Assembly: GCA_964019425.1 (NCBI GenBank)
Contig: OZ025795.1
Location: forward strand, 310,001-374,000
Length of the DNA: 64,000 nucleotides
Direction of reading: 5' to 3'
From: Flectonema sp. DT1601
Lineage: Eukaryota
Made by a program: the position numbers and the translations under genes. Every line of letters starts with the position of its first letter. The first letter of the stretch is position 1. Shown in pieces: positions 1-63,691 of the stretch. The notes beneath the pieces are model-generated. The model searched no databases. It had not been told where the DNA came from and saw nothing but the letters and a program-made list of their open reading frames with translations.

Positions 1-1171
1 ACTAACAATCGCTAAATACTTTCCTGAAGGAACTACCTTATGAACTTCTGACAATTGAATAATGTGAATGTCGTGTTTACGAACAGGCTTAACCTGACTG
101 TATGGAATAATAATTTGACACGACTGCTGCTTTGTAGCTTCAACTGGTCTGTCCATCAAACAAATAGTACGAGCAACCTGACCAACCTTCTTCACTCTGT
201 CGGGAAAGTAAGTTGGATCCCCGACGATAAAACGGGCCTTTGCATATCCTTCTCCGGTCTGAATTCCTTGGAATTGACCTGTTTTATAATTGAATTGGTT
301 ATTGTATTGTGTGTTAGTAGTAGTAGGGAATAATTGATAGTCAGGTGCTGTTTTTTTTATAAATAAATAACATACCGTCAGCTCCGAAGTCGATCTTCTC
401 AACAGGAGTGTCCAACATGTAGGTTCCACCGTAGACAGCAGAAAGTCTAGCGAATGCCTGAGGTAGTTCACCTAGTCCATAAAGTGGGTAAACGAATGGG
501 GAAACAGTACCACCCTCGTACATTGATAAGGATGCCTCGTAAAGAGCAATCTTTTGAATAGTTTCGTAGGCTCTCTTGTCGAGGTACTCCTCAGACTCGT
601 TGAGAGCAATTGCGTGTCCGATAAACTCAATCGTATCCTTTGAAAGACCAAAGTGAGAGAACACGGCACGCATAGTCTGTTCCATTGGGTTGAGCTTTCC
701 AAATGTTTTTGGGTTTTCCTTATCAAAGTCTTGCGCCCAGGCAAAGAATTTCGCTGCGCGACGCTTCTCCAAAATTCCCATCAAACTAGAAGACAAAGCT
801 TCTCTCTCAGTACAAGGTACTTTATAAACGTGTGATCCACGGGCAACAAAACTACCATCGCACAACATGAACTCCATTTGGTATCTGTTGACAACTGTAG
901 CTCTCAATATTTTAACTAACTCACCGTCAGCTAATAAGAACTTTGCAATCTGATCGACGTTGTAAAGATGAGATTTTCCCATCGATGCTGAAGGCTCTCC
1001 CTTTGAAAAGTTCTTGTACAGCTGGTCTAAATTTAATGACGCGCTCTCTCCTCCGTAGTATCTATTTCTGTCCAAGTGAAGGACCTTTAATCCGGCGACT
1101 GAAAGCAGACCTGATAAGATACATTCAGTTAGACCAGTACCACACACAACTGCATCATATTCTTCCTCCAT
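1..1171 (-). CDS. GDI1: Rab GDP-dissociation inhibitor (3' end runs off window); exons 1171-376 and 278-<1
   Basis: N-terminus MEEEYDAVVCGTGLTECILSGLLSVAGLKVLHLDRNRYYGGESASL and YPLYGLGELPQAFARLSAVYGGTYML are GDI hallmarks. Intron 279-375 (GTATGT...TACTAAC...AAAACAG) restores frame into GQFQGIQTGEGYAKARFIVGDPTYFPDRVKKVGQVAR. Confidence 0.95.
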
Positions 1172-1424
1172 TTTGAGAGTGCTCTGTGTGATGTTTAAAA
1201 TATGATAGTAAACTGTAACCTATAACCCATACTACTGCTGTGGTGTTAAGATTCTTACTCCTGTAGGGGGGTAATTGTGGTGCTTTTGGATTAGGGATGG
1301 CAGAAACAAGTCTTTTTGTTTGTAACATTTAGTTCTAAAGAAATTCTAAAAACAGCGACAAGTTCAGATATTATTATTATCTGGAGAGAATTATAGTTTT
1401 TTTTTTTTTTTTAATTACTTTTGA

Positions 1425-10343: not shown

Positions 10344-10409
10344 ATCCTTCAAGAACAGGCAGGCAATACGATGAATGGAACAACGCACTCACAACAGCAG
10401 GGCAACAAA

Positions 10410-10502
10410 AGGATCAGCTTGAAGGCCGAAATTACTTGAAATCAATAAAAAGGATTTTCATACGAACGAGATCTATTGGGTAATTTCTATATCATCATGA
10501 GA
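10410..10502 (-). ncRNA. Box C/D snoRNA family A, copy 1 (double guide)
   Basis: C box AUGAUGA (10498-10492), D box CUGA (10417-10414). D guide antisense to LSU UUGAAGGCCGAA. D' (AUGA) guide antisense to SSU ACGAACGAGAUCU; the D'+5 rule gives the A equivalent to human 18S Am1383 (recalled). Confidence 0.85.
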
Positions 10503-10544
10503 TATTGTGGAATCAATAACAACAGAAGGAAGAGAACGGCAATA

Positions 10545-10582
10545 GAAGGGTTGTGTGTGTTATCCATCATGTGAATCATGTG
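10545..10582 (-). pseudogene. Truncated 5' fragment of snoRNA family F (C-box end only)
   Basis: Near-identical to the C-box end of family F (11646-11683) but lacks the guide, D' and D boxes. Confidence 0.6.
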
Positions 10583-10604
10583 AAGGAAGTGAATGTTCGA
10601 AGAC

Positions 10605-10704
10605 CAGACAATCAGACAGCCCGTCGTTGTTTGTCACCAGATCTGCACCCAAAGGGAGCAGGTAAGGCATCAGCTTGCAATACGACTTTCTCATCATGTG
10701 TCTG
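10605..10704 (-). ncRNA. Box C/D snoRNA family B, copy 1 (SNORD43/snR70-like target)
   Basis: C AUGAUGA, D CUGA, D' CUGA, 6-bp terminal stem CAGACA/UGUCUG. D guide antisense to SSU GCCCGUCGUUGUUU; D+5 is the decoding-centre C (yeast Cm1639/human Cm1703, recalled). Confidence 0.85.
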
Positions 10705-10732
10705 AAATTACTTCAAAGGAGATACATCAAGA

Positions 10733-10798
10733 GATTCTTGTACACGTGGGTGTGCGTTAATTCCATATCCGGAAGGAACGCGACCGTATTGCGTACTT
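10733..10798 (-). ncRNA. Single-hairpin H/ACA-like (AGA box) snoRNA H1; predicted LSU target UGGGUU-Psi-A-GACCGU
   Basis: Lower stem GUACGC/GUGUAC, upper stem GCGUU/AACGC, pocket arms ACGGUC and ACACCCA, AGA 15 nt below the pocket top. The target is in the peptidyl-transferase region and requires one bulged guide base. Confidence 0.7.
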
Positions 10799-10868
10799 TC
10801 TAAAAAGAGATTGGGAACTTCTTCAACAACAAAAACGATCAGCAGGGAAGCAGGAACACGGCAGAAAA

Positions 10869-10974
10869 AGCAACGCTCAGACACGAAAGCTACGTCAACA
10901 AATAGCATTCAGGTGACTCACGGTCTGCAGAACTATGAGATCGGCTTTCTATCTCGTCAATCATTCGCGTTGCT
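10869..10974 (-). ncRNA. Box C/D snoRNA family C, copy 1
   Basis: 8-bp terminal stem AGCAACGC/GCGUUGCU, D and D' CUGA, atypical C box AUGAUUGA. Guides are antisense to ACACGAAAGCU and UGACUCACGGUCU; targets uncertain, possibly adjacent SSU sites. Confidence 0.7.
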
Positions 10975-11026
10975 ATGTTTCCCTTTTTTCCAACTCCCAC
11001 AAAACACAGAAAAGATGTCGTACACA

Positions 11027-11122
11027 CAGAGCTCAGACAGCAGGACGGTAGTTGCAGTTTGGTTTCATGAGTAAAGGTTGGAAGCCATCAAATATTATGA
11101 TAAGGTGATCATCTTCGCTCTG
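11027..11122 (-). ncRNA. Box C/D snoRNA family D, copy 1
   Basis: Terminal stem CAGAGC/GCUCUG, D CUGA, C variant AAGAUGA. 13-nt D guide antisense to conserved LSU ACAGCAGGACGGU. Confidence 0.8.
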
Positions 11123-11169
11123 AATGACGACAATTCAAATCAAAGACAGGTTCTGGAAAGGTTCTCAAA

Positions 11170-11243: not shown

Positions 11244-11271
11244 ATTACTTTAGACAGTCAGTTTCAGAGAA

Positions 11272-11377: not shown

Positions 11378-11430
11378 CTTTTCCCCTTTTTTCCAACTCC
11401 TACAAAAACACAGAAAAGATGTCGCACACA

Positions 11431-16725: not shown

Positions 16726-17346
16726 AATAGTTGTTGTGTATTTGGGTTTTTACTGAAAAAAGGAAACTGATGATTGAAAGTAACTACGTAGTAAGGATGA
16801 TTGTTAACAAAATGTGTGTGTACCACATGTTTGATCACAAAACATGTTTAAAAAGAACTTGAGTGTAATCTGTAGAGCATTGTGAATCTCAGTAGCTGTA
16901 AGAGGGGTGAATAAAAAAAGTATAATTAAAATTAAAATTATATAATAATAAAAAAACAAAGAAAACCAGATCACACTGATTAAAGTTCTTTCTCATGAGA
17001 CTTTAAAGCGACAGGGCGCCAAGTAAAGATCAAGGCAGGGCACCTGAAATGGCTTCTTGCAATTTTAATTCTCGTCTTGCGTTCTGCGAGCAGTCTTCTT
17101 CCCATTCTGATTGATAATTGGAGAGGAAGGCTGCAGCAGTTTTTTTTTTTGTTTTTTGTTTTTTTTAATATTATTTTTCATTTTTTTTGCTTTTTTTTTT
17201 TTTTCAAATCCGAAAACCTCTAGCAACCATCTCTTTTTTTTTTTTTCCCGCCGGTCGATTTACCAATCGACTATTCAGCCTGATCACTTTTCTAATCTGA
17301 CTGACTAAAGAAGTGAGTGATTTCCAAGGGAGCTGTTTATATGGTT

Positions 17347-21086: not shown

Positions 21087-21489
21087 TTTGACCAAATCTG
21101 AAGAAGAAAATAGAACCATTAAAAGAAGAGAAAAAAGTCAAAAAAAAAAAGAAAGTTAACATCAAATAGTTAGTGTCTAGCAGCGATAAGTCATCCAACA
21201 AGTACAACAAATAAGTCAAAAAAAATTTCAATTTAATTTAAAAAAAATTGTAAGGACTCAAACAAAGAATCGTTGCGTTTCGAGCCAAAATTAAAAAAGC
21301 TTTCTTCAGACCATTCCCCTTTCCCAACCCTCTTCAGCAAAGGAAAGCAAGGCCTCGTGTTTGCCCTTCTCAGCAAATAGTTGTTAGTTAGTTAAATATA
21401 AATATGGTTTCAAAGTCAACTAATATAACAATTAGTAATTTATGATACAGATCAGAAGGAGTAGAGATGAGAGTAATAAATAAAAGAAA

Positions 21490-24110: not shown

Positions 24111-24869
24111 TGTTTGTGGTATGTGAACTGTGCTCTGATAGCTCTTCACTAATGCGATCACTGTAAAAGAAGTTGACAGTTAAAATTCCAAATAAATAAA
24201 AAAAACAAATAGTGGTTAACGATATAACTTTCTATGAATATCTATTCTTCGGTTTTTCACTACAATTATTCTAAGGAAGAACTACAACAATAATAAGATA
24301 AAGCGGTGCTTATATTAGGCGTTTTCTTTTTTTTTCAACTCATTCAAACAAAATGCACACAAGCCTTTCACAGCCATACTACATTTCATGTCTGAACCAC
24401 TCCACACAGGTTCCTATCTGTGGTAAGAAGCTTTTTATACTTTTTTTTCTTCTTTAGATTTAAGCTCCTGTAGGTTTTTTGAGTATATCCAACGCCCACA
24501 AAGGGAAGGGGAAGGTTTTTTTTTTTTTATTAAAAAAAAAAAAGAATTCTATAACGACAGGAACTAAAAAAAATATTTATTTCTGAACACGCACACCGAG
24601 GTTAACAAGTTGTAATGAAAAATGCTGTATTGCGAACATGCTGTAACTGCATGTACCGTTGCTTGTATAACCTTAGAGTATGCCCACCTTATAATAATAC
24701 GATAAGCGGACGGGTTGGGGGGGGGGGAGAGAGAACAGAATTGAAAGGGAAAATAATAAAACTACAAACAGTAATAAAAAATTCTAATAACAGCAATAAA
24801 GAAAAATAATAAAAAAAAAAAGAGATAACAACGGGGGGAACTTGTGTATAATATTTTATTTATCATTAA

Positions 24870-27800
24870 TTATGGCATCCCGGGGATGTATGAACGAGCT
24901 GCAAGAAGACTTCTACCCGACCTCGGTGGTGATCTTCCGGCTCTCAGAGGTGAGTTCCTCGCACTTACACTAGTCAAAGTAGCGAGTCTGCTTTGATAAG
25001 GAACTCTGGACATAGTTCCAGTTGGTGTGACTGGAGCTGAGCCAAGACCACTGTCTCTAATCCTTTCGGGAGTGTTTCTCGCCATTGGTGGAATCAATTC
25101 CTGTTTGTGTGTTGTTAAAGTAACTCGCACACTACAACAACAAATACAACTCAACAATATCATACCTCTCTCTTCAATGGAGAGAATGGACGTGTTGATC
25201 CAATCATTGAAGCGCTGACACGTTTAGCGGTAATGAGAGAGTCTTTTGATCCTGTTTGTGTTTTAACTGTTTTAAGAATTCAATAAATAATAAACTTAAC
25301 TAACTGTGACAGTGATGATAACAAACCTGGTGAAGGAGTTCTATCTCTTCGTGGTGATAGGCCAATCTTAATCCCTGAACCTGATCTCTGCCACGTTGAT
25401 GAAACAGCTGACGCTCGAGGTGTCATGACGGAGGAGGGTGTTGCGCCAGTTCTAATTTGACGAAGTTCGTCTTCAAGAAGAGCAGCTTTTCCCTTTTCAT
25501 CTTCAGTCGCCTCAGTCATTACTTGAAGTCGGCCATCAAGTCTAGCGAGGTTTGTTCTCAGTCTAATGACTTCATTATTTTTAGTAGCCAATTCAGTCAT
25601 TGCTGCTTCAGCATCCTGAGCCTTTCTTGAAAGCTCTCTACGGAGATCATTAGCTTCACGATCCTTCTCATTAAGAAGTGCTTCCAGGTCTGAAGTGCGA
25701 GCAGAAAGGTCTCTTACGGTAGCAACGTGGCCGTCTGATTGTTTTCCAGTGACGTCAATTGCTTCTCTTAGGCGTAGTAATTCTGCCTCTTTGTGTTCAA
25801 GGATTGCAGGAAGGTGTGATAGCTGCCTCAGTTTATTTACTTCCTCTTGAACAGCTGCTGCCTGTTCACGTGCACCCGTCATTTCTTCTTTTGCGCGGAT
25901 GAGAGTGATGCTATTTTCACTCGCTTGTCTTTCTGCGGTGTCCCTGGATATTTCTAAGGCACCAGTTCTCTCTCTGTAGCTGTTCAGCTCTCTTTCCATA
26001 ATTGATGCTTCATTTAGTGATGCGTCGACTTGTTTACGAAGTGCTTCCTTTTCACTCTCTTGAGCATTGCACTTCATCTGAGACTGTCTGTAAGCTTCAT
26101 CCATAGCGTCAATGCGACCTTCGAATCGAGCGATTGATCCTTTCATTCGAATACCTTCCTGAGCCTTTTCAGTTACCTGACACTCGAGATCATCTCTAAT
26201 TCTGATAATGTTTTGCATTTCAATCGAAAGTTCGTTTATTTTCATCTGAAGCTCATCACACGAAACTTCTTTCTCAGACACTCGCTGTTGAAGTGTTTGT
26301 GAAGATCTCGCGTAGTTCTGTGCCTCGTCTTCTGCCCTTGAAAGTGATTGCCTCAAACGAACTAATTCAGCTTCTTGAGTTTCAATTACTGATGGCAGGT
26401 TCTCGAGACGACGTACTTGAGTTTCAAGTCTGATCATTTGATCTTTCAGAAATGAGTTCTTCTCTTTCAAAGAAAGGATGTCTTCATCCTTAGCAGCAAG
26501 TCTTCCTTCAAGACGAGATATTTCTAAAGCTGCGGTACCAGTGGCGTTCTTCTCATCGTCTAGTTGTTGTTGAAGACTTCGAATATCACGCATACGATCT
26601 CCAATAGTCTGAGCCTGTTGTTGACATTTATCATCGAGTGTCTGTAGTTGGAGATGTTTGTCTTCGAGTGCTCGCTGAAGATTTTCGATTTCTTGTTCGC
26701 GTTTGTTGGTTGCGTCGTGAAGTACTTGGACTTCATCTCTTGAGATTCTTAACTCTTCTCTGTACTCGGCGTTCTTTTGTTGTAATCTACCAACTTGTGC
26801 TGATAAAGAAATACGTTCTTGTTCCAATACATCTGTTGCGTTCTGAGCATCTTCCTTCTCTCCTTGAAGCTTTACAATAACTGCACCCCACTCAGATAAT
26901 TCTCTTCTCTGTTCAGCTAGTCTGGCTTGAAACTGTGCACTTTGCGCTTCGCTGTCTCGGAGTTGTGCCTGAGCATCAGCGCGTAAATCTTCTGCTGTCG
27001 CTACCCTCCCTTCAAGTTGAGCGATCTTCCCCCTCGCTGCTGATAAATCAGCCTTAGCAGCTGATGACTGCCTTCGACTTTCTTCCAAGTCAGCTCTGGT
27101 TTGCTCTCTCAACATGTTTGACTCCTCTCTGATTCGAAGTATTTCAGTGTGAGAGTCATCGAGGTCAACATTCAACTTCTCAACCTGCTGCATGAAGGCG
27201 GTGCGTTCTCTGCTGAGTTCATCACAGCGGGAAGTACGCTCGCTGAGATCTTTCTCTTGACCAGCAAGCTTTGCTTCAGTGTAAGAGATGTGCTCAAGTC
27301 TTTCTTGAAGTTGTTTCTCAAGACTGCGAATACCAGCTTCGTGTTCACCTACTTGTGATGATTGATGTCTTCCTCTTTCACGAAGTTCTTCAATCTCATC
27401 TTCCTTACCGTGAATAGCTCTTTGAAGTCTTTCTAATTCACAGACTCTGTCTTCCAGTTGGCGGGTTAGGTCGTCGGACTTTCTCTGAGAGTCGTCGTGT
27501 TTGTTACACCAGCCGTCAATTTCTGACTCCAGTTGTCTTCTGATTTGTTCGCTGGAATTTATTCTTTCGCTCAAGGTTTGAGTTTGTAATCCACTTTCAG
27601 AAAGCTGTCTACGAAGACGGCCGAGTTCTTCCTGTCCATGAAGGGCCTCAACTCCCTGTTGTTTAGCTCTTTCTTGAAGAGTGAGAAGTTCACGTTCTCG
27701 TTCTTGAAGTATTACTTCGAGTTCACTGGATCTGACTCTGAGGGAACGAAGTTCTACTTGTGAATCTTCATTCTGTTGAGTAGCAGTACTCGCTACTCTC

Positions 27801-28357: not shown

Positions 28358-28426
28358 CTTGCTGTCTGAGAGATGTAAAATAAATTGATAAAGAGTGATA
28401 CAAAAACTACAAAGATACATCTCCTA

Positions 28427-31337: not shown

Positions 31338-34300
31338 TTAGGCTTCCTTCCAAGGTTCAATTTCAAGTACGAGATCACCTCCCTGAATCTGTTTTTTTTA
31401 TATTGAACAAGGTGATTGTATTTGAAAAGGTAATTACAACAAAATAAATAATAACATACCTGCTCACCCTTCTCAACAGCAATACGTTTAATGGTACCAG
31501 AGATTGGAGCTCCAACAACAGTTTCCATCTTCATAGCGGACATGACTACTAGAGGGTCACCCTTTACAACTTGTTGGTTCTTTTCAACCTTAACGTCAAC
31601 AACTTCACCAGGCATCGGTGCACCAATACTGGCATCGTTGGTCTTGTCTGCCTTCTCTCTGGCAGCACCACTCTCAAGAGCTTCCTTGCATAGAATGTAA
31701 ACAGATCTTGGCTGACCGTTCATCTCAAAGAATACCTCACGATGACCAGTAGAATCAATATGACCAATAGTCTTTAATTTAATGTGAACAGTCTTTCCCT
31801 TTTGGATATCAACTGTTACTTCTTGACCATCCTTAAGACCACAGAAGTAAACTGGTGTTGGAAGTTCTGTAACATTTCCATAGTCCTGCTTAAAGGCTTT
31901 GTACTCAGCGAATACCTTTGGGTACATAACGTGAGACTGAATGTCATCATCAGAGACGTTTCCAAACTTCGCTTCCAATTCCTTGCGAACTGCTGCGAAG
32001 TCGACTGGATCCAAATCAGCACCTGGACGAGCATCGTAGGTCTTTGCTCCCTTCAAGACCTTTGTACGAAGAGGTTCTGGGAAGCCACCTGGTGGGTGAC
32101 CAATTAACCCCTGGAAGTATTCAATTACACTTGTTGGGAATGACAAGTTGTCAGCTTTCTCAGTTAACATGTCTGAGCTGGTGATTTCATTTGAAACCAT
32201 AAACTGTGCGAGATCACCAACAACCTTTGATGAAGGAGTTACCTTTACGATATCACCCAAGGCCTTGTTAGCTTCTGCGTACATCTTTTTAATATCACCC
32301 CACTTGTCAGATAGTCCTAAGCTGAATGCCTGGAAGTGCATGTTAGTGTACTGACCTCCCGGAATCTCGTGGTTGTAAACATCAGAAGATCCACTCTTCA
32401 TTGTGGCGGTACACTCGAATGGTCCGTAGAGACCACGAGCTGCCTCCCAGTAATCATTCAGCTTTCCAACTTCCTCCATGTCAAGACCGGTGTCAAGTTC
32501 AGTTCCCTTGACGGAAGCTGCGAGGGCTCCAAGTGACGGCTGTGATGTCATTCCACTCATCGAGTCCAGTGCGACGTCAACAACATCTGCACCAGCCTTC
32601 GCTGCAAAATACATCGCAGCAACACCTGCACCACTCGTATCGTGAGTGTGAACGTGAATTACGGTGTCAGGGAATTTATTTCTCAACTCCGACACCAACA
32701 ACTCTGCTGAGTTTGGTTTCAACAGTCCAGCCATGTCCTTAATTGCGAGACAATGAGCACCTGCGTCCATTAACTCTTCAGCGAACTTCAAATAATAATC
32801 AAGAGTGTACTTAGTACGGGAAGGATCACAAATGTCACCAGTGTAGCAGATGGAAGCTTCGGCAACACCACCAGACTTTCTGGCAGCATCGATTCCGAGA
32901 ACCATGTTAGGGGTGTAGTTGAGAGAATCAAACACACGAAAGACGTCGACACCTGCCTCGTTAGCGTGTTTGCAGAATTCGTAGATGGCGTTATCTGGGT
33001 AAGAAGTGTATCCGACAGCATTCGCTCCACGCAACAACATTTGAAATGGAATGTTTGGAATCTTCTCACGTAGGATACGTAATCTGTCCCACGGACATTC
33101 TCTCAAGAATCTCAAAGCCACATCGAATGTAGCACCTCCCCAACACTCTAAAGAGTAAGAAGAGTTAGCCATCGCCTTAGCAGTGTATGGAGCAATAGCT
33201 TCTAAATCACGTGTTCTTACTCTAGTTGCGAGAAGTGACTGATGAGCATCTCTCATAGTAGTGTCCATAAACAACAATCCCTTGTGATCACGAACTCTCT
33301 TCAAATAGGCATCAACACCCTCATTTATAAGAGTGTGTCTAAATCCGTTCTCTTCAACGAACTTTTCACCTTCAGCGTCAAGCTGTGGTGCATTTGGCTC
33401 CACAGTAATTGGTTCGATAGGTGTAGCGAGAGGAGTCTTTGGTCCGTTAACTCTGATATCAGCGAGGTAATAAAGAAGTTTCTGAGCTCTGTTTAATGAT
33501 GTTGAAGGAACTAATAATTCCGGGTGACTATCAATAAAACTTGTATCAGTCAATCCTTGTCTAAACACTGGATGACCCAAAGTTGATGTAATGAATGGGA
33601 TGTTAGTAGAAACACCACGGACACGGAACTCTTCAAGAGCACGGGACAATTTACGTGCGGCTTGTCCGTGATTTTGAGCCTTAGCAGTAACCTTGACAAG
33701 GAGAGAGTCGTAGTGAGGAGAGATGATACCACCTGAGTAAGCTTGACCATCCAGTCTAATTCCCATTCCTTCACCAGTACGGAATACTTCAAGTCTTCCA
33801 GTATCTGGTTGGAATCCATTTGAAGGATCTTCAGTTGTTACACGAGCTTGGATGGCAGCTCCCTTGAAAGTAATCTCATCTTGAGTGAGTCCCAATTCTG
33901 GAAGTGATTCAGCAGCTGCGATTCTAATCTGAGACTGAACGATATCAATTCCTGTGATCTCTTCAGTCACAGTGTGCTCAACTTGAAGACGTGGGTTTAC
34001 TTCAATAAAATAAAACTGATTGTCTTGATCAAGAAGGAACTCTACTGTTCCAGCATTACGATAACCAACTGACTTACATAAATGGACAGCAGCTGCAGTC
34101 ATGGAGTCACGAACTGAGTCTGGGAGATTTGGAGCAGGTGCGATTTCTACAACTTTCTGATGTCTTCTCTGAACAGAACAGTCACGTTCAAACAAGTGAA
34201 CAACATTACCGTAGTTGTCTGCAAGTACCTGAACTTCAATGTGTCTTGGCTTTACAATAAACTTCTCAATAAAGACAGATCCGTTTCCAAAAGCTGCCAA

Positions 34301-34966: not shown

Positions 34967-35355
34967 TGTTATGCGTAGCAGTTGTCTGGTGTGGAAAACA
35001 AAATTAAAAAAGAAACATTGAAAGCAATCTAACTACACAACATCTTCCGGCCTTCAACATACGGTTTTTCCTGAAATGCGAATTGTGAGTAAAAAAAAAA
35101 ATTAAAGAATCAAAATATATATTCTAATGTTAAATAACGAAAGATTGTCTCAAGAACGTAACAAACAAAAACAAAAAAATAGAAATCGAATGGACGATCA
35201 GTAAGAACGGTTCGTCCCTTACATTTTCTGAGATACTTTCGTCAACTTAAGCAAGACTGAAGCTGAACAAAATAGACTACGTAATATAACAAAGTAAAAT
35301 ACTTTACATTTTTGACATTCTGTGGAGTAATTAATAGATAGGTACCTTCTCTCTC

Positions 35356-37569
35356 CTACGTACACTTACAGCTAGCCAATGCTCTATCCTTCACAGTTAT
35401 AATAGTACGAAGTTGATTGATCGTGTCTTGAAGGTCTGCCTGGTCAGTTGATTTCGCAACCCCTGAAGAAAACCACATCCAAACAACCACTAAGAACACA
35501 CTAAGTGTTATAACAAGCTGTTTTGTAGTCGGCTTGAACACTGGACGAGATACAGGCTTTCTCAAAGCAGAGGGATGAGAATCTGAAGCAGCAGATTTCA
35601 CTATGTCGATGACACTGGGTGAACCAGGTCTTGCTATGCTGACACTCCTTCTTGATGAAGGTCTTTCTTCACTGTTTCGTTGTTTAGCTAACTGCTCATC
35701 TTTTATTCTTATGATCTCTCCTACTTTACGATCAGATTCAAGAACTCGTTGTCTAAGTTGTTGAATTTCTAAATCTTTTGATTCGACGAGTTGCTGGGTG
35801 TCACGTTCACCACCCTCTCTGTGCATCAGATCACTTTTTGCTCTTTCAAATTCAAATTCAATATTGTTGATGTGAGTGTCTTTTTTTTTATTTTCTCGAA
35901 CGCATTCCGCCAGTTCAGATTTCAAGTTTTGATGAGATTGTTGTTCATCACTAAGTAGAGTTGATAATGAAGTAATTCGATCAGCTAAGTTAGTAATATC
36001 GACATCACGTTGGTTAATTAATTCTTCTTTAGACTCTAAGTTCTCAATGTACGTAGCAGACTGAGATTCCAATCCTTGTAAACGAGCGCGTACATCTTCG
36101 GTATCGTGGTACATGTCGGTAATGGTATCGTCTTTACGTCTGACATCACCTCTCTGTTCCTCAATATGCTGAAGCAGTTGTTGTACTGTTTCTTTTTCAT
36201 CTTCCAATCGCTGTGAGAGGTGATTATTTTGTTGTTGTAGTTCTGGAATCTTTGATTGCAACTCAAATATCTCACGTTGTTTGTGTTGCTGTTCCTGTCC
36301 AATCGCCTCCACGCGAACATTCTGTTGAGTCTTTGCCCGTTCGATTTCCTCCGCTGCGGCAGATAATTTTTCCTCAAAAAAACTGATTTTATTTTCTAAT
36401 AAAACCGTTGCTTCTTTATGTTCTTGAACGCTGTGGTCAAGTTTTGATGTTTCGCTTTCGACTTCTTCTTCCAATTGCCGGATGCGAGCAGATTTTTCTT
36501 CTACAGATTGCCTGGTCTGATTAAGTTTTTTTTCAATGTTTAGTGAGGCCCAGTGAGCGTCTTCCAGTTCTTTGTTAACTTTTTGAACTTCCGACTCTAA
36601 CTCTGAAATTCTATTCGAAGTGTCTTCCTCATCAGAGGGTTGCGCTTCAAGTTGTTCATCAACACCTCCCGTTGGAGATACTGCTCTTCTTGTTGCTAAT
36701 CTTTCTCTGAGATCTTCAATCTCTTTAACGTATTTCTTCTGGTTGCTCTGTTGTTGTTGTTGTTGTTGTTAGTGTTCGTTAGCAGTGTTTAGTAATGGTT
36801 TTTTTTTGATAAACAAAAAATAAATATATAAAAAAAGGAATACCTCAGTACGTTCCTTCCATGTTTCCATTCGGGTATGCATCATATCCAAATCAGCTTT
36901 CTTTTCTGATTCCAGCTGGTCTCTCGCACTCTCTGCTAAAGCTGCTTTCTTCTCCAATCGGATCATGTCATTCTGAACTTGTTTATCTCGTTCTTTAAAG
37001 GATTCAATTTGTCGAGTTAGACCTGTTGAATATTTAAGTTGTTTGTTATCCAAACACTTAAAAGTAACACAATAAGAGAATTGTGATGATAATGAGACAT
37101 TACAAACCTTGAATATAAATTTCATCGACGTTTTTACCAGCTTTTTCAGAAGCCTCTGTCAGTTCCTGTTTTTTTTTTTTTTTTTATTAATGGAATTTAA
37201 AACATAATGCATACGGAAGTTATAATAATAATAATAAATCATTAATTTATATACCTTTATTGCGTGTTGCTCTTGAGTCAACGATCTTCGAAGTGTTTTT
37301 AATTCTTGATCGCTCTTTCTTTTATAGTCGTCGTACTCTATACGAAGGGTGTGTGTTTCAGCTAACAGACGCTGGTAGTCTTCATCTTTCTTTTGAAGTT
37401 TTTGTTCAGCGCGTTTAAGCATTACCTCAAACAATTCGGAACTGTCGCCAACAACATCACCGTCACCACCACCTTCAGTACATTTCAGTTCATCGACTTC
37501 CTTCTGAAGTAGTTCACCCTCTTCGGAAATGTCAACCATCTTTTTAAATTCATTGATAAACGAGGACAT
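35356..37569 (-). CDS. Coiled-coil protein with near-C-terminal transmembrane helix (golgin/tether-like, 647 aa); exons 37569-37255, 37165-37108, 37022-36844, 36747-35356
   Basis: Three GT-AG introns join three predicted ORFs in frame. TM segment LVITLSVFLVVVWMWFSS. The 5' end may be incomplete. Confidence 0.75.
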
Positions 37570-37843
37570 AATGTCCTTATATTCACCTGTTTAAGTTTTT
37601 TAGGAAATTTATTCGTGTTTATCTCAGATTCGTTAGTCAGCAATCGGCATTTTTAAGTTAATTAATTTTTTTTTTAATAAAAAGATAATAATAATTTTTT
37701 GAATTAATTTAATCAGGTCATTTAATAAAAATAGTTTGTATTTCTTGATATTTATGCAAATTTTTTTTTTTTAAAAAAAAAAATAATAATAATGAAAAGA
37801 ATAATATGGAAATAAATCGCAGCAGCGAAAAATCACTTTTTTT

Positions 37844-42286: not shown

Positions 42287-42500
42287 TTTTTTTTTGGTTA
42301 TAAGTTGTTATTTATGATTTCATTTTATTTTTGAGAATAAAACCAAAAAAAAAAAAAAAAAAATTAGACACTGAAAAAAAAAAAAATGTTAAAAAGAACC
42401 AACAGCGATAACAAGACTCAGATAATTCCTTCACAGGAATCAGTTAAAAAAAAACACAAATTGTTTTTTTTTTTTAGTGTTTCTTTTTTATAAAAATAAA

Positions 42501-43182: not shown

Positions 43183-43781
43183 CTATTCCATGAAGAGACC
43201 AATTTTCTTCTGACGGGCTTCCTCCTCAAACCATACCTGTGATGTTGTTTTTTAGTCCAATTCACTTCCAGGTGTGAAAATCTTAAAGCGCACCCGACAG
43301 ATTTAGTATTTCTCCACAATGATAAAACAATACATACCGGTCCTGGGCCACCCCACTTAGTACCCAAAGAAAAGATAAGCTGATAAAGAGCTCTCTGTGT
43401 TGTGTTTAATATTTGTTATTGCTGTAGTCATTCTTCGTCTATTATTATTATTTCTTTTTAAAATAATTAACATACCTGAGTGTCACTCTCAAAGTGAAGA
43501 CCGTATACCCAGGCAAACCCTCCAGAGAATAGTCCGAGAAGGCCACCGCAGACCCAAATAGTCGTCGCAAAAATTACATCAAAGTGAGATTGAATAAAAG
43601 GTACAAATGATCCGTATGAAAAATTTCTCTTAGTGTACTCAGTCTGCTCTCTGTGTGAAAGCATTAAATATTTACCTGCGAATCTCCAGTTCTCTCTCAT
43701 CACAGTTCTAGTAGTGTTTCTTGGAAGTGAAAAGTATGGGTTTGGTGTCCCCAAAGCGATTCTTGATGCACGGAGTGCCAT
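43183..43781 (-). CDS. Small putative mitochondrial membrane protein (138 aa); exons 43781-43476, 43394-43338, 43236-43183
   Basis: Presequence-like MALRASRIAL and a hydrophobic segment VIFATTIWVCGGLLGLFSGGFAWVYGL. Two GTATGT..CACAG introns keep frame. Confidence 0.65.
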
Positions 43782-44132
43782 GTTACCAATTATCTGAAAG
43801 TAGTAATGAATAAAGTTATGATGATTGAGACTTATTAGAAAACAAGAATTTTTTTTTTTTTTTCTTTTTTAAAATATGATCTAGAAATAGGAAGTGGAAG
43901 CGCAACAAAGCACCTCTAGAGGGTTGCAATCTTTTTGAGACAACAACATTTAATAAAAAAAGGGGAAAAAAAAAATGAAATAAGAATTTCTTTTATATGA
44001 AAAAAAAGATAACAATCTAAGGATTCTACTTCCAAGTCGGTACTGCTTGACTCACTGACACAAAACTCACTGAACAACTAATTCTATAGAACGGAAGATA
44101 CAAAAAAAATTATATATGGCAAAAAAAATAGA

Positions 44133-47100
44133 TTAACCAAGAGCTGCATGTCTAACCCTTTCAGACATTGATTGAGGTTGATTCCAACCTGACTCTTCAG
44201 GTACGATGTGAACGTCGGGTTGTTCTGAAATACGATCTCTTATAAACTGTTCTCTCATGTTAGCTGTTAGACCTCGTGAGATCATACTTTGAGGGTAGTC
44301 ACCTAGTGATTGTATTTCAACCTGAGGATTACCAACGTCACTAAATGAATAATTAGCGGACAGTGGATTCTGATCAGCTTCTGTATGCACATCTCTCCTT
44401 GAGAATGTCGCTTCAATAGGATTGTGAGCTATCAGTTCTTCCCCACTCTTAGTAGTCGCATCACTAGGTAGTGGTGCAAATTGTTTTTCCTGAAGAACTG
44501 GATCATAAGCTGCAGAATTATGATGCCCTGAAGGTTTATACAAGTATTCATTTTGTTGATTGCGGGGAACCTCTGCGGGGGCAACGTCTTTGTTGTTGAC
44601 AGCCGCCTCTTGCGCTGCTTTCCTCCTTTTTTTACGTCTCCACAAGAAGAATATTATCCCCGCGATAACAGCAAGTAATATAACACCAGCGATTACCAAC
44701 ACGACAATCCAAACTGTGTCAAGACCTGAGTCTGATGTTGATCCAGCTGTGGGCATTGGATTATTACCTTGACCGTTTACATTACCTCTTGGGTAAGCTT
44801 CTAATAACTGTAAAGACTGTCTTAGTGATGTGGAGGAAGTAGCAGCTGCTAAGAATCGATCAGTCAGCACAGCTGAAGTAACCTCACCAGGAGCACCAGT
44901 ATTTGAGAATTGAAAATCTACAATCGTATCAGGTTTGATGTCTGTGATTAATACTCTGTCGGGTGGTATTCCCAACTCATTTCCTACAATTGATTTGAAG
45001 GTGTTTGCGTCAAAGCTTGCCTGAGGCATATCAAGAACAGCTCTAATTGTATTAGAAGCCTGGTTGTTAATTACAATCTGTAATACTTGTGGAATTGATA
45101 CTGCTCCCTGTGAATCACGAGCCGTAACAACAATCGTAGAATTACCAACAGCATTTGGAGCAGCGATAAAGGTCAAAACTCCGTTTGGAGATATTGATGG
45201 CCCAGGAGTAGTAAACAACTCTGGATTCGAAACAGATAAAACAAAAGTAACTCCTTGAGGTTCATCTGCAGGACCAGCGCTAATTTGAGTTGCCCACTGC
45301 CGAGAAACTGTACCACCGGAGGTACCTGAAACAGTAGAGACAGTTGGAATACCTGGACTAAACACTGGAGGGTCATTCACTGGGTTAACAGTCAACCTAA
45401 AGGCAGCTGGATCTGTGCTGTCGATACCTCCATTTGCAACACCTCCGTCATCAGCTAGCACTGCAGTCATTAACACAACTCCATTAGCATTCGGTGCTAA
45501 TGAGAATTGAACATCACCTCCTGGAACTCTGATAGTCGGTTGAACGAGAAACATCTCTGGCTTGTCAGTCGTAACAAAGAATTGAAGCTGTTGTTGTTAT
45601 CACTTAGTTGTTGTTGTTGTTGTTTGACATAATCAAAACACGTAATACGAATCATAAAGATAATTATACCTTCTGCCCCACCTCATCTGGAGGACCAGGT
45701 GACAGCTGCGATGCCCAGTTTGGTATGAGAACAGGCGCTGAGTCTTCATCAGCCTGTTTGATGATTTTATATTGGTGTTGTTGTTGTTGCATTATACACT
45801 AACAAATCAATTGAAAACTAAAAGGGTGTCACAATCCTTTCTTTTGTTTTATAATAAATTAATTAAGTACTGAAGACAATAAACTCATACCAGAACATCA
45901 GAACCAATAGTAAAACTTGGCCTATCATTAACAGGAATAATATTAATAAAAAAGAACGTTGAATACGTTCCAAGACCCATATTATCAGAACCACCATTAT
46001 CACTGAGAGTAACATCAACTCGGACATCTCCGTTTCTGTCTGCGGCAGGTGCGAAAGTCAGATCTCCAGAAGCAACCCAAACCTTTGGAATTACAGAAAA
46101 CATTCCAATAAGAGATGAAGTTGTGTATGTCAATGCTTGTGAATCTTCAAACGGCCCAGGAGATGCTGACTTTGCCCAGTTTGGGAATGTCTGGTCAGGA
46201 GCATCTTCAAGAACAGACACATCAGGTCCTCTTAAAAAGAACGGAGGATCGTTAACTGGTGTTATCGAAATTGAAAACGGAACAGGCGCGCTTTCTGAAA
46301 TCCCACCGTTTGCAGTACCTCCAGAATCGGATGCCACGATGTCAATTACAACATCACCAAATGCTGAGGGAGCAACTGTGAAACAAAGATCTCCGGTAAT
46401 CGGATCAATATTTGGACCAGTTCCAAATAGTTGACAACATCGAGGAGTTGCTGTGAATGATATCAATTGATTCCTTTCATTAGCAGGTCCAGACATTATA
46501 TTTGAAGCCCACCTAGTGATACAAACTGGAGGTGAATCTTCTAAAACAGTTAAGTCTGCACCCTTGTTGAATGTCGGAGGGTCATTTACTGGTTGAATTG
46601 TAATCGAGAAAACTTCAATCTCACTGCTGTCCATCAGGTTTAAACCCCCTCCGCTATCAATTGCACGGACAGTCACTAATGCTTCTCCGAATGCATTCTG
46701 AGCAGGTACGAATGTTAAGATACCTTCACTTGATATTGCTGGTTGTTCTACAAATAGTTCAGGTACAGCAGCTGATACAGCAAATCGAACTGTTTGTTCT
46801 ACTTCTAAGGGACCTGGTAGGATGTCAGTCGCCCACGTGTTTACATATCTAGGTGAGTCTTCCAACACGATAACGTCTTGTCCTCTTTTGAAAGTTGGTT
46901 TATCGTTGACTGGATTTATCGTTATCGTGAACTGTTCTCTGGTAACGTCTTGACACCCGTTTAGAATACCTCCATTGTCCTGTAAGACGATAGTAATGAT
47001 CGCAGTACCTGATGCATGAGGTGCTGGTGTGAATGTCAAATCACCAGTTGTTTGAGAAAGAGTTGGTAACTGAGTGAATAACTGTCTCTTATCAGGAGGA

Positions 47101-53988: not shown

Positions 53989-55692
53989 TCAGGTAGCAGA
54001 GCCAGGCTGGGCAATACTCGCAAAGATGTCATCGATCCAACCTTCTCGTACCTGGTTTGTGCCGTTAAAATGGTGGTCCCTGAATAAAAGGTTGTTTGGT
54101 TGGGGGAAAATAATACACACCCAGTTGAGATAATGTGCTCCGTCAGGAGAAGTGTGAATCATTGGCCAGCTCTTTGCAAAAGTATCAACAATCGGATAAT
54201 TACGAAGACGAGCCAGCTCGTATTGTACTTTGTTGTATAATCTGTTTGTTAATTTCTTTTTGTTTTCTTGTAAACTTTTTGTTTAATTGTCATACCTGTG
54301 TCTCAGATTATTCCTGCAATCAACGCGGTGTTGGTGACTTCGAATATGTTTATTCAGAGGATGGGCAGGTACTCCCAACCAGATTATTTTTAATTTTGGA
54401 TGAGCGTCGAATGTTGACATTGCCTCATTTACAACTTCAGAGTGTTTCCGAATTGACCAACAGCTTGATGCGTGGTGCTGACCAACACCAGCAACAATAA
54501 TATCTCCATTTGAGAGCATATCCCGTGCTGTTGGTCTGGACATGTTCAGAAAGTAAGCCGCTACATATGAGATAGAAATATTATGTGAAGCTATTCTGTC
54601 AGTTCGATCCCCTCTCCAGACTTTATTATGCGGGAAATTGATGTTCATTCTTTGCAACAATCCATAAAATGTCATTCGCATGTGTGAGTCACCAAAAAGT
54701 GTAATTCTTCGATTCCGAAGAATCTCCAAAATCATTTCTTTTGGATACTTCGTATGTGTACAGCTGTAGGGTTCCCACTTGTACGATCTCTCAAAATTAA
54801 TCCTTCCGAGAATATCAGGAGTGTGCTTATTTACTTTAGCTTCGTGTTTATAATGAAGCCAGTATCCAGGATATTCTTTCTGAAAATTAGAACGGTCTGA
54901 ACCTGCATCGACCCATCTGCCCCATTCTAAACTTTGCGAAACACCACATGAATGACCTGGCTGGACCATGTCTTTCTTGCATACTAATTCCGTGTGTTCT
55001 GTCAAGTCGGTCCCTAAGATTGGATACCATGTCTTTTCCACAGTCTCAGCCACAGCACCATACTTTTCATAAAGATGCTCTGCCCACAACGAATACGTTC
55101 CAACCCTACCCAGAACAAAGTGTGAAATATAACTACAAGGTGGTTGCTTTCTTCCCTGAATTGACACTTCATCTAAATGAAATGTTGTATTCCCCATTAC
55201 TATTTCTGGTCCTCGTAGCTGAATGCGAAGGTGTTCTGGTCCAAAGAATGTTTTAATCCAATTAAATATCGGAGGGTCGTTACTAAAGTGTTGATCTGTA
55301 ACATAATCTTTACAGGAAGGTAACGATTCCCTAGAGACTGAAAGCCAACCAACACAAGATACTTGATCGTAGTACAGTTTACTTATGAACCCAGAAGCTG
55401 TGTAGGTTTTGACTAACAAATCGTTAGTGGAGTTCAACGTAGAATCCCACTCAGTACGCCCCTTTGTTTGTTGAGTCTTTGGTTGTGGGGTTTTTACATC
55501 TCTTTTGACATCACTGTCAGTGACATTAATTGTACTTCTCACAGGTGTCAATCTGTTTGTTGATTGCACAGTGCTAGTAGTACTTTGATAATAACCTTCT
55601 TCTTTCACCTCAGCCAAAGAAAACATCCCCACATAGCCAAGTGTTATTGCAGCGATACCAATGAGCCATAATCCTTTAATGCGAATGCCCAT
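53989..55692 (-). CDS. NXPE/PC-esterase-like SGNH hydrolase or O-acyltransferase, type II membrane (526 aa); exons 55692-54296, 54241-54121, 54051-53989
   Basis: N-terminal TM, YKWEPYSC and ITLFGDSHMR (GDS). Spliced exon 2 supplies the catalytic DxxH (PDGAHY). Confidence 0.8.
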
Positions 55693-60479: not shown

Positions 60480-60995
60480 TTATTATTATGAGACGGCATT
60501 GCTGTAAATAGAACTAAAAGAGAAATTAAAAGTTAAATTTGGAATTACTCTTCAGAAAAGATAACGACCTCCGTAAATGGTCAGATAAATATTTTGTGTG
60601 GATAGCTTCCAGTGAGAGGACTGGACGAATCCCCAGAGCATCCAACAACAACAAAAAAAATATATTTTTAAAAAAAAAAAATCAAGGCAAGGAAGCATAT
60701 TAACAAACAATTATGAATTATAATAAAAATAAAAACGAAAAACGAAAACAATAATAGGTTTTTAACTAACTGAATCGAATGGTGCACGAAAAAATCTTTT
60801 TTCAATAATATTATCCTCTCTCAGGTAAGCTAATATTGCATTATATTTTACTTACAAATTAACAAACAATCACTTTTGTGAGTACACAAAAAAACGTGTC
60901 ATCTCTAATATGTGTTGTAAAAGATAAAATAGCAACAAAAGAGTCTTGAGATTACTATTTGTTCACATCAAATAATAAATAATAATTCCAAACAA

Positions 60996-61829: not shown

Positions 61830-62134
61830 TTGATCAGATTGTAGTTATATAATCATTTGTTATGTGTGTGGGGATGTGGTGTTCTCTATAATGTTAAGGA
61901 ATGGGATTTAATCAAATTAATAATAAAGTATTTCAATAAAAATTGCTGACAAAACCAAAAAAACAAAAAACAAAAAAACACTTTTTTTTTTATTTTCCAT
62001 CATGATCACACTTACTAAACTGAAATCAAAGATAAGAGACTGAGACCCGACAGCCACAGCCCTGACGCATAGTAACGAAAGAAAAGCAATATTTTTATTC
62101 ACAAATAGTAGTAAAAGTAGTACTCTACCATCAA

Positions 62135-63691
62135 CTACTGTTTAAAGTACCTTGAGAAAGCTTTCATGTACGGCATCTTTCGTACTAGTTGTCTCCAGAA
62201 GTCTTCGACGGTTTTAATATCTTTATGACGTCTGTTCATATTCTTAGACACTCTCAAAACCATTAAATTCCATTTCGTGACGTTAACAGGAAGCTCTTCG
62301 TCGTCGTATTGAACGTGAAAACCGGCTATTTTACTGTTTTTTTTTGGGAATAAAATGTGTTGATTGTCTTATTTAGGTGGATATTGATTTTTTTTAAAAA
62401 AAGAAAATAATAATAATAAAGCATACTTTAATACATCACGAGGTTCAGCTTTCTCCTTATCTCCATAGAATCCTTCAAATTGCCATTTTTGACCAGACAC
62501 CAAAATTGCACAGACATAAGGCCATTCTTCTGGTCTCCTGTAGTTGTTTTAGTTTTTTTTTTTTTTTGTCTTTTTTTGTTTTTTTCTGTTTCAAAATAAA
62601 TTAAATACAAACATTTGCTTCACATTATCTCTAACAAGAAAATCTGTGAAAGGACAGTTAGACCTGTCGACTTTCATAACCTGACCTGACGGTAGGATTT
62701 CATGTTTAACCTTCAGAGGATCCTCCCACTTACCAGATGCTAAGAATGATCTCGCATTTCTTATATTAACAGCTGAAGTGATAGAACTCGGAACGAATAT
62801 GATTGGACGGATCGAAGGAGTTAATGAAAGCTGTTTTGGTAAAGACTTCGAAAGGACTCTAATCGTTCTTGTTAAGATCTTGTGGATGTGTTCATTAGTA
62901 GCGTGTGGTTGAAACGAATTACGAATACTGTCGTATCCGAAACACTCGTCTCTAAATGAACATAACTTCTTACTGACAACATAGTTGACAGGTGCTAAGG
63001 CTTTTACTTTTAGTGTTTCTATGTCGTATTCAGACATTCTCTTTAGGATTTGCTCACATCTGTCATGACATTGTTTTAATTTCTTATTACTATTAGTTGG
63101 TCTTACAGCAGGACCAATTGCAGGTCCAATAATTGGTGTTGCTCCTGACAACCGAGACGATGTCTGCGATCCAATGTCATCATAAACGGGACTCGCTTCA
63201 TACGCAGTTTTTGGTCGTTTTTTACGATATTTTGTTATATCTGTGTGGCTTCCAGCATCTCTACTGCTTCGGGTACCCGCAGAAGACAGGTATTCACTTG
63301 CACTAATTTCACTACCACCTCCATAGTTTGATACCTGACCAGTGATATTAATTACTGAATCAAAGAAACCTTCTTGTTGAGAAGGAACATCTTTACCCAT
63401 TTTTTGATACAAGAAGTCGTGAACTTTTGCTTTTCTTGATCTCAAACTCTCACCCACACTGATTAGAGGAGTTGTATGTTTCTCTGTCTGTGCAGTACTC
63501 GATGATATTAACTGTCGAAGAGACTCTCTTGGTAGCTCTGCAGCAACAGCGTTATTCATGCTATTTATATCATGGAGGGTGGGATAAGTTTCAGAAGCAG
63601 TAGGTTCATCATTTGATGCGAAGTATCTATCGACGTAAGTCTCCCACTCAGAATAAGCGCTTTCAAAAGTCTTCTTTTCGGTGGTCGTCAT
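62135..63691 (-). CDS. CDC73: CDC73/parafibromin (Paf1 complex, 462 aa); exons 63691-62613, 62537-62427, 62333-62135
   Basis: PIIFVPSSITSAVNIRNARSFL. Spliced exons give MRPEEWPYVCAILVSGQKWQFEG and GFHVQYDDEELPVNVTKWNL..RRHKD..FWRQL, matching the Cdc73 C-terminal domain. Confidence 0.88.

What the first reader, a model, noticed from the sequence alone, without database searches (positions are those of the whole stretch)
279..62612. Inverted 3' splice-site code: cis introns end in A/C-rich tracts, putative trans-splice acceptors in U-rich tracts
Seen: all 17 frame-preserving coding introns (54-202 nt) end in CAG preceded by A/C-rich sequence with no polypyrimidine tract. Examples: AAAAAAAAAAAACAG (20840, 37166), ATAAACAAAACAG (18243), AACACACAAACAG (25101), ATAAAAAAAACAG (31389), CAACAACAACAG (36748), CCCAAAAAAAAAACAG (62334). 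AGs just upstream of start codons instead have classic U/C tracts: TTTTCTTCTTCAG (21098), CTTCTTTTACAG (24161), TTTCCTTTTTTCAG (16753), TTTTACATCTCTCAG (28366), TACTACTTTCAG (43794), TTCTATTTACAG (60502). Pyrimidine-rich AGs inside introns appear to be skipped (TTTTATTCAG at 54080; CCCTTTTAG in 45754-45890). Established: U2AF65 binds polypyrimidine tracts, and euglenozoan spliced-leader acceptors use them. Inference: the organism marks cis acceptors with an A-rich signal so they do not capture the spliced leader, implying cis 3' splice-site recognition that does not rely on the usual tract. I do not know of this being described, but cannot search the literature.
Basis: partly seen in the sequence, partly recalled or inferred. 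Interest (0 to 1): 0.9.

Follow-up and report, generated by a model that had tools for sequence, protein, structure and literature searches.

The report
Two splice-acceptor signatures in one genome
In this stretch of a marine protist (diplonemid) genome all 17 predicted introns end in A-rich sequence while most gene starts are preceded by a U-rich splice signal, which likely helps the cell tell intron removal from the addition of a shared leader RNA; A-rich intron ends were already reported for a related species.

Summary
The window is a unidirectional cluster of 21 minus-strand genes of a diplonemid (Diplonemidae). All 17 introns (54-202 nt) restore open frames; 13 are backed by homology, 9 of them exactly. 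All end in CAG (16 ACAG) after a tail of 67% A and 15% T (p<1e-4 against the intron bodies). A pyrimidine-rich CAG lies within 120 nt of the ATG in 19 of 21 genes, against 33% of distal windows (p~1e-7). Two homology-fixed introns bypass U-rich AGs. The contrast is real in the DNA.

Limits: no RNA could be laid, so leader addition is inferred from the lineage. The A-rich cis half is published for Diplonema japonicum (PMC12621601). Introns do hold U-tracts, next to the donor (16 of 17). One gene with a conserved start has only A-rich AGs upstream.

Best reading: cis acceptors avoid U so that they are poor substrates for leader addition and the coupled cleavage; short introns are likely defined from the donor side. 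I did not find the cis/trans contrast in 10 literature searches, but one key supplement was unreadable. New variant of a known kind; interest 0.5.

The parts
279..375 (-). cis intron, Rab-GDI gene, 97 nt, A-rich ACAG end; inner A-rich CAG at 348 (28 nt from donor) not used
   Evidence: gap-free junction against P0122 and P0123
18243..18444 (-). cis intron 2, RNA pol III RPC2, 202 nt; pyrimidine-rich CAG at 18329 bypassed
   Evidence: frame; homologue length fits, exact AG not resolved from two downstream in-frame AGs by score
20840..20903 (-). cis intron 1, RPC2, 64 nt, A14-CAG end
   Evidence: gap-free junction against D. papillatum P0003
25101..25165 (-). cis intron 2, coiled-coil gene CC1, 65 nt
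   Evidence: frame only
25252..25326 (-). cis intron 1, CC1, 75 nt
   Evidence: frame only
31389..31459 (-). cis intron, pyruvate carboxylase, 71 nt
   Evidence: frame; exon 1 stops about 11 residues short of the human chain end; approximate
36748..36843 (-). cis intron 3, coiled-coil gene CC2, 96 nt, (CAA)n-CAG end
   Evidence: gap-free against F. neradi transcript protein P0243
37023..37107 (-). cis intron 2, CC2, 85 nt
   Evidence: gap-free against P0243
37166..37254 (-). cis intron 1, CC2, 89 nt, poly-A-CAG end
   Evidence: gap-free against P0243
43237..43337 (-). cis intron 2 of a 138-aa membrane protein gene, 101 nt
   Evidence: frame only
43395..43475 (-). cis intron 1 of the same gene, 81 nt
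   Evidence: frame only
45588..45669 (-). cis intron 2, Ig/cadherin-repeat gene, 82 nt
   Evidence: gap-free against an internal repeat of the protein
45754..45890 (-). cis intron 1, Ig/cadherin-repeat gene, 137 nt; U-rich TAGs at 45818 and 45799 bypassed
   Evidence: gap-free against internal repeat; 45799 would insert 15 aa
54052..54120 (-). cis intron 2, NXPE/PC-esterase-like gene, 69 nt; U-rich CAG at 54080 (41 nt from donor) bypassed; least A-rich tail (40%)
   Evidence: gap-free against P0246 and P0247; 54080 would truncate a conserved motif
54242..54295 (-). cis intron 1 of the same gene, 54 nt, A-rich throughout (the only one without a 5' U-tract)
   Evidence: gap-free against P0246 and P0247
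62334..62426 (-). cis intron 2, CDC73, 93 nt
   Evidence: frame; Pfam spacing; approximate
62538..62612 (-). cis intron 1, CDC73, 75 nt
   Evidence: frame; Pfam spacing; approximate
21098..21115 (-). U/C-rich CAG 11 nt before the RPC2 ATG (21086); putative spliced-leader acceptor
   Evidence: sequence; start supported by homologues; leader addition untested
16753..16770 (-). U-rich CAG before ATG 16725; putative leader acceptor
   Evidence: untested
24161..24178 (-). U-rich CAG 50 nt before the dihydroxy-acid dehydratase ATG; putative leader acceptor
   Evidence: untested
28366..28383 (-). U-rich CAG before the CC1 ATG 28357, only about 60 nt after the upstream stop; putative leader acceptor
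   Evidence: ATG chosen by judgement; untested
42371..42388 (-). poly-U CAG 84 nt before the PPR gene ATG 42286; putative leader acceptor
   Evidence: untested
43794..43811 (-). U-rich CAG before ATG 43781; putative leader acceptor
   Evidence: untested
60502..60519 (-). U-rich CAG before the IQ-repeat gene ATG 60479; putative leader acceptor. Further sites of this class: 63788, 61946, 55751, 53218, 51746, 42744, 34986, 29596, 10152, 7078, 3637, 1261
   Evidence: untested
37587..37640 (-). exception: A-rich ACAG with a GACTAAC branch-point-like motif, 17 nt before the conserved CC2 start; no U-rich YAG and no canonical donor in the 274-nt spacer
1184..1232 (-). possible 5'-UTR cis intron of GDI (GTATGG donor, A/C-leaning ACAG end, 49 nt)
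   Evidence: sequence only
34986..35062 (-). ambiguous: GTATGT donor followed by a U-rich CAG in the pyruvate carboxylase leader region; a U-rich cis acceptor or an alternative leader acceptor
   Evidence: sequence only

Best explanation
The 17 introns of this diplonemid gene cluster end in a U-poor, A-rich tail plus ACAG, whereas most genes have a U-rich CAG just before the start codon that likely receives the spliced leader; the split likely exists because a U-tract plus AG inside a coding intron would attract leader addition and the coupled upstream cleavage, truncating the mRNA. Shown: the introns, the two compositions, and bypass of U-rich AGs in homology-fixed introns. Taken from the lineage: polycistronic transcription, a leader on essentially all mRNAs, and (in trypanosomes) tract-directed trans-splicing coupled to polyadenylation about 100 nt upstream, with purines and pure C tracts working poorly. 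Inferred: the cis 3' site is found from the donor side across a short intron (GTWTG donor with +4 T in 17/17, U-rich stretch just after it, then a U-poor CAG at least about 50 nt on). The tail is then mainly an avoidance of U and G, filled with A in this AT-rich genome and with C or CA in other Diplonemidae. It is a bias that tilts the choice, not an absolute code.
For: Tail A 67%, T 15%, G 3%, against intron bodies A 43%, T 33% and a T-rich sense strand in spacers, so it runs against the background. Nearest pre-ATG CAG against cis CAG: A 24% vs 67%, p=4e-7. Pyrimidine-rich CAGs per kb: 9.7 near ATGs, 3.2 in distal spacers, about 1.0 on the antisense strand. Bypass of 54080, 45799 and 45818 and 18329. 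Lineage. Trypanosome rules: PMC6597758 and PMC9639853. A-, C- or CA-rich cis tails across Diplonemidae: PMC12621601. An unspliced gene call from another diplonemid assembly (P0004) reads through an intron end as HTHTHTHTQ, which fits a (CA)n-CAG end (indirect).
Against: No RNA read was seen. The CC2 gene has only A-rich AGs before a conserved start. Pyrimidine-rich CAGs are not clearly depleted inside introns (3 in 1485 nt, 2.0/kb, against 3.2/kb in distal spacers). Three of the five skipped inner CAGs at 40 nt or more from the donor are not pyrimidine-rich, so skipping does not need a U rule. Euglena has cis and trans splicing with the same C-rich tract (PMC11170887), Sulcionema specki cis introns keep a short C/T tract, and kinetoplastid cis introns contain tracts, so the split is not required for the two modes to coexist. 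Only 17 introns and 21 genes from one window.
Confidence: 0.55

Rival explanations
1. Donor-presence rule with a by-product composition. Any acceptor with an upstream donor is cis-spliced and any without one takes the leader. Trans acceptors need a strong U-tract because no U1 helps them; cis acceptors have simply lost the need for one and drifted.
For: CC2 would have to take the leader at an A-rich AG. Strong donors G|GTWTG are slightly scarce in spacers, 1 against 4.4 expected, p=0.045. The premise is stated for other trans-splicing organisms (PMC5832876), and flatworms share acceptors between the modes (PMC12582326). Many eukaryotes lack a 3' tract without any trans-splicing (PMC2483917).
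Against: Drift predicts a tail like the intron body or the T-rich spacers; T is instead halved and A reaches 94% at -4. The donor depletion is marginal, one of 12 motifs tested, and absent for GTATG.
Confidence: 0.25
2. Positive A-tract signal: a dedicated A- or AC-binding factor (a changed or duplicated U2AF65, or another RNA-binding protein) recognises cis acceptors, so two 3' splice-site pathways run in one nucleus.
For: A rises steadily towards the AG (14/17 at -5, 16/17 at -4), and the A:C ratio is higher in the tail (4.5) than in the body (2.9). The putative leader sites have T at -5 in 15 of 19, though these were picked for pyrimidines.
Against: The tail is not one motif (poly-A, CAA repeats, mixed; 40-100% A). 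U2AF1/2 were found in D. japonicum with no special paralogue mentioned in the passages read. No splicing-factor gene of this organism could be examined (no genome).
Confidence: 0.15
3. Displaced tract: cis introns still use U2AF65 or a TIA1/Nam8-like protein, but on the U-rich stretch in the 5' part of the intron, as proposed for fungi; the A-rich tail is only the branch-point-to-AG spacer. This can hold together with the best explanation.
For: 16 of 17 introns have a U-rich 12-mer 31-169 nt before the 3' end; T is 54% in the first fifth and 17% in the last. Non-terminal poly-T patterns occur in fungi and amoebozoa (PMC2483917).
Against: The 54-nt intron 54295-54242 has no U-tract and is homology-confirmed. 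A YTRAY motif was found in the last 60 nt of only 8 of 17 introns, at scattered distances.
Confidence: 0.2
4. The U/G-rich 5' half and the A/C-rich 3' half pair to bring the intron ends together, as in euglenozoan non-canonical introns.
For: Complementary polarity; 3 of 17 introns fold better than shuffles, z about -2.5 to -2.9.
Against: Mean z -0.17 (global shuffles) and -0.06 (half-wise shuffles), not different from zero; the tail is almost unpaired in 7 of 17.
Confidence: 0.03

Closest known systems
A-rich 'poly(A) tract in the PPT' of canonical introns in Diplonema japonicum (Thakur et al. 2025, PMC12621601)
   Same: Same family (Diplonemidae), GTATG donors, CAG end, A as the commonest base where the tract should be; weaker A and CA motifs in Lacrimia lanifica and Rhynchopus humris; U2AF1/2 present.
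   Different: That paper's main text does not analyse leader acceptors (2 hits for 'trans-splic', none on acceptors) and offers no cis/trans rationale. Introns here are longer (54-202 nt against a median of 41). The species here was not identified.
Kinetoplastid spliced-leader acceptors (PMC6597758, PMC9639853)
   Same: Unidirectional gene cluster; U-rich tract plus AG shortly before the start codon.
   Different: Kinetoplastids have only 2-3 cis introns, which do contain tracts (PMC11613528); here 9 of 21 genes carry introns.
Euglena gracilis introns and outrons (PMC11170887)
   Same: Both splicing modes in a euglenozoan; CAG ends; T-poor cis tract.
   Different: Cis and trans acceptors share one C-rich pattern; no inversion.
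Schistosoma mansoni cis versus trans acceptors (PMC5832876)
   Same: Trans acceptors are more U-rich with longer tracts than cis-only acceptors: the same direction.
   Different: A difference of degree with much sharing of sites; here the two classes barely overlap in A minus T content.
Introns without a 3' polypyrimidine tract in fungi, Trichomonas, Giardia and amoebozoa (PMC2483917)
   Same: 3' splice-site choice without a terminal U-tract; poly-T located further 5'.
   Different: No fixed strong branch point here, and the same genome keeps terminal U-tracts at a second class of AG.

Membership tests
Canonical U2-type cis introns of Diplonemidae | GT...AG ends whose removal restores a conserved protein | tested here: met
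   17/17 GT-CAG with open frames; 13 homology-backed, 9 exact
Canonical U2-type cis introns of Diplonemidae | (G)/GTATG-type donor | tested here: met
   GTATG 10, GTTTG 3, GTATA 2, GTATT 1, GTGTG 1; T at +4 in 17/17
Canonical U2-type cis introns of Diplonemidae | Host is a member of Diplonemidae | tested here: met
   RPC2 tree, 100/99 clade with S. specki, D. papillatum and R. euleeides; some species labels are my reading of source prefixes
Canonical U2-type cis introns of Diplonemidae | Junction reads from this organism | not testable with these tools
   no sequencing run was listed
D. japonicum-type A-rich acceptor | A is the commonest base in the last 20 intron bases | tested here: met
   A commonest or tied at every position from -30 to -4
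Euglenozoan spliced-leader acceptor | Pyrimidine tract plus AG shortly upstream of the start codon in a unidirectional cluster | tested here: met
   19 of 21 genes
Euglenozoan spliced-leader acceptor | Leader exon joined at that AG in mRNA | not testable with these tools
   no RNA for this organism; only a related GDI transcript contig (L001) starts with a leader-like 24-mer, which I recognised from memory
Euglenozoan spliced-leader acceptor | Coupled polyadenylation of the upstream gene | not testable with these tools
   needs 3'-end reads; the 69-nt spacer at 28358-28426 is short for the trypanosome distance of about 100 nt
Non-canonical structured introns of euglenids and Hemistasiidae | Non-GT-AG ends with strong end-to-end pairing | tested here: not met
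   all GT-AG; no folding excess

The most novel reading that the evidence does not exclude
Diplonemidae run two 3' splice-site recognition routes in one nucleus: a U-tract/U2AF65 route reserved for spliced-leader addition and coupled polyadenylation, and a U-free, A/C-tail route for cis introns, so that acceptor sequence alone sorts each AG into cis or trans. This would explain how an intron-rich genome survives obligatory polycistronic processing.
Probability: 0.3. Interest if true: 0.8.

Novelty: new variant of a known kind. Interest (0 to 1): 0.5.

Why it matters
How one spliceosome chooses between cis-splicing and leader addition is open in every lineage that does both; where compared (Euglena, flatworms) the acceptors look the same or differ only in degree. 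Diplonemids combine leader addition on essentially all mRNAs with thousands of introns. A near-binary acceptor signature would give the published but unexplained A-rich tract of D. japonicum a reason, and existing RNA-seq and the transformable Paradiplonema papillatum make it testable at once. It would also help gene finders split merged diplonemid gene models.

Tried and rejected
No whole genome is held for this window, so no genome-wide logos and no U2AF or SF1 inspection. No sequencing run was listed for 16000-25900; this is no evidence either way. A metagenome scan with a diplonemid GDI alignment gave 16 loci: one intronless transcript-like contig at 68% identity (L001) and 15 at 34-46% best-segment identity that I did not use (only the 5' end of L004 was viewed); no genomic diplonemid locus was recognised. 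Intron end-pairing was rejected. A branch-point consensus was not established: YTRAY in 8 of 17 introns and 9 of 19 pre-ATG sites. Donor depletion in spacers was marginal. Rfam found only a tRNA, no leader RNA or snRNA gene. The ESM Atlas did not answer, so the 138-aa gene stays without homologues. Three look-ups in earlier scan notes returned nothing relevant. Assembly artefact was considered: homopolymer errors could change run lengths but not create CAA/ACA tails or the strand-specific pattern.
Full report
Setting. The window is 39% GC. Every open frame over 190 codons lies on the minus strand, giving 21 genes in one direction, among them Rab-GDI, RPC2, dihydroxy-acid dehydratase, pyruvate carboxylase, CDC73 and two PPR genes. 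The best RPC2 hits are Sulcionema specki (70%) and Diplonema papillatum (69%), with non-diplonemids at 54% or less. The RPC2 tree puts the window in a 100/99 clade with S. specki, D. papillatum and Rhynchopus euleeides; the GDI tree agrees on diplonemids but leaves the family fork open (12 and 17 hand-picked rows; labels for Sspe, Hpha, Tbor, RCo and GGOE are my reading of source prefixes). One coiled-coil gene had a single non-self hit, from Flectonema neradi. The species was not identified. No genome and no sequencing run were available.

Introns. I rebuilt 17 GT-AG introns of 54-202 nt in 9 genes, all giving open spliced frames. Nine junctions are fixed without gaps by homology: GDI and RPC2 intron 1, three in CC2 against the F. 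neradi transcript protein P0243, two in the Ig-repeat gene against its own internal repeat, and two in the NXPE-like gene against P0246 and P0247. Four are supported approximately: RPC2 intron 2 (local scores were a little higher for two downstream in-frame AGs, but the length fits D. papillatum), pyruvate carboxylase and two in CDC73 (my middle-exon query was off frame and gave nothing). Four rest on frame alone.

Cis acceptors. 17/17 end in CAG and 16/17 in ACAG. Positions -18..-4 are 67% A, 15% C, 15% T, 3% G. The A count is 171 against 113 (base shuffles) or 109 (random windows of the same introns); the T count is 39 against 82; p=5e-5 each. Spacers on the same strand are T-rich (37% T, 29-32% A), so this is not background. 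The introns are polar: T falls from 54% in the first fifth to 17% in the last, and 16 of 17 have a U-rich 12-mer away from the 3' end. Donors are GTWTG-like with T at +4 in all 17. Folding shows no excess over shuffles (mean z -0.17).

Pre-ATG sites. With a CAG and at least 10 of 15 pyrimidines, 19 of 21 genes have a site within 120 nt, against 33% of random distal windows (p=8e-8) and 6.2 of 21 in dinucleotide shuffles (none of 1000 reached 19). Density is 9.7 per kb near ATGs, 3.2 distally and about 1 on the antisense strand. The threshold was post hoc, and three ATGs were curated (RPC2 by homology, two by judgement). With first in-frame ATGs and stricter thresholds the enrichment stayed at p<0.05 in 11 of 12 settings. 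Taking simply the nearest CAG, A is 24% against 67% at cis sites (p=4e-7); A minus T is +3 or more for all 17 cis sites and negative for 16 of 21 nearest CAGs.

Skipped AGs. The U-rich CAG at 54080, 41 nt from its donor, would cut off a conserved C-terminal motif and is bypassed. TAG 45799 would insert 15 residues and 45818 shifts frame. CAG 18329 shifts frame. But an A-rich CAG 28 nt from the GDI donor and three mixed CAGs at 54-65 nt are skipped too, and pyrimidine-rich CAGs are not clearly rarer in introns than in distal spacers. Skipping is compatible with the code and does not prove it.

Exceptions. CC2 starts at the same methionine as its F. neradi orthologue, yet the 274 nt back to the upstream stop hold only A-rich AGs, the nearest (37587) with a branch-point-like GACTAAC, and no canonical donor. 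Either the leader is added at an A-rich site, or processing begins inside the upstream gene. GDI's nearest CAG is A/C-leaning but has a GTATGG 49 nt upstream and may end a 5'-UTR intron. The U-rich AG at 34986 has a GTATGT 77 nt upstream, and the TAG at 63705 a GTGAGG, so some U-rich sites might be cis acceptors. A second F. neradi isoform (P0242) starts inside exon 3, which could be intron retention or leader capture at a cis acceptor; I could not tell.

Literature. PMC12621601 (read: abstract, introduction, first results sections, discussion, passages; supplement not available) reports that A is the most abundant base in the tract region of D. japonicum introns, weaker in L. lanifica and R. 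humris, C-preferring elsewhere, with CA motifs and U2AF1/2 present; its main text does not treat leader acceptors. PMC10161547 (passages; Additional file 1 too large to read; one other file searched with no hits) gives unidirectional clusters, a leader on essentially all mRNAs and 5'-UTRs of about 70 nt. Passages only: PMC11170887 (Euglena, same C-rich tract for both modes), PMC11613528, PMC5832876 (schistosome trans acceptors more U-rich), PMC6597758 and PMC9639853 (trypanosome tract rules, including inactive (C)17 and harmful purines, cited there from earlier work), PMC12582326, PMC2483917, and two that added nothing. The cis/trans contrast in diplonemids did not appear in ten full-text searches of an open-access library; the unread supplements could hold it. 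The roles of TIA1/Nam8 and intron definition are recalled, not from a call.

Mechanism. In trypanosomes a U-tract plus AG triggers leader addition and cleavage about 100 nt upstream. In an intron-rich relative the same signal inside a gene would truncate it, so selection should strip U from intron ends. What is left is A in an AT-rich genome and C or CA in other family members, which is what is published for them. Short introns with a strong donor and a 5' U-stretch can likely be defined from the donor side. I give this 0.55, a donor-only rule with drift 0.25, and a dedicated A-binding route 0.15; a displaced tract (0.2) can hold alongside the first.

Verdict. Observation confirmed; interpretation partly supported; half already published. 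The new element is the within-genome contrast and its rationale, seen in 17 introns and 21 genes and untested on RNA. New variant of a known kind, interest 0.5.

Noticed in passing
37570-37843 and 37992: The spacer between the PPR gene and CC2 has intron-like polarity (U-rich, then A-rich, GACTAAC, ACAG). A GTATAA at 37992 inside the PPR frame would splice in frame to CC2; a GTTTAA overlaps the PPR stop. Possible shared cis/trans acceptor or fused isoform.
   Followed up: partly
28358-28426: Only 69 nt between the second PPR gene's stop and the next ATG, with the U-rich CAG about 60 nt after the stop: little room for a 3'-UTR if polyadenylation lies about 100 nt upstream as in trypanosomes.
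   Followed up: no
60477-60499: An out-of-frame ATG 2 nt after the U-rich CAG opens a 7-codon frame whose stop overlaps the main ATG of the IQ-repeat gene; a uORF or an assembly slip.
   Followed up: no
51931-52004: tRNA-Val(CAC) on the plus strand inside the minus-strand gene cluster.
   Followed up: no
about 10400-12700: Block of near-identical repeats of several hundred bases (about three copies seen by eye); Tandem Repeats Finder with period up to 500 found nothing. The start of the downstream ubiquitin-domain gene is uncertain.
   Followed up: partly
21590-21635: A U-rich CAG followed 4 nt later by the only strong G|GTATG donor in the spacers, 524 nt before the RPC2 ATG; possible micro-exon or 5'-UTR intron.
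   Followed up: no
29662 and 29827: A cis-type A-rich ACAG 116 nt before the PPR ATG 29545, with a GTATAT 166 nt upstream; possible non-coding intron.
   Followed up: no
   Followed up: partly
13078-16722: One 1,200-aa frame joins DUF924, a serine hydrolase (FSH1) and leucine-rich repeats.
   Followed up: no
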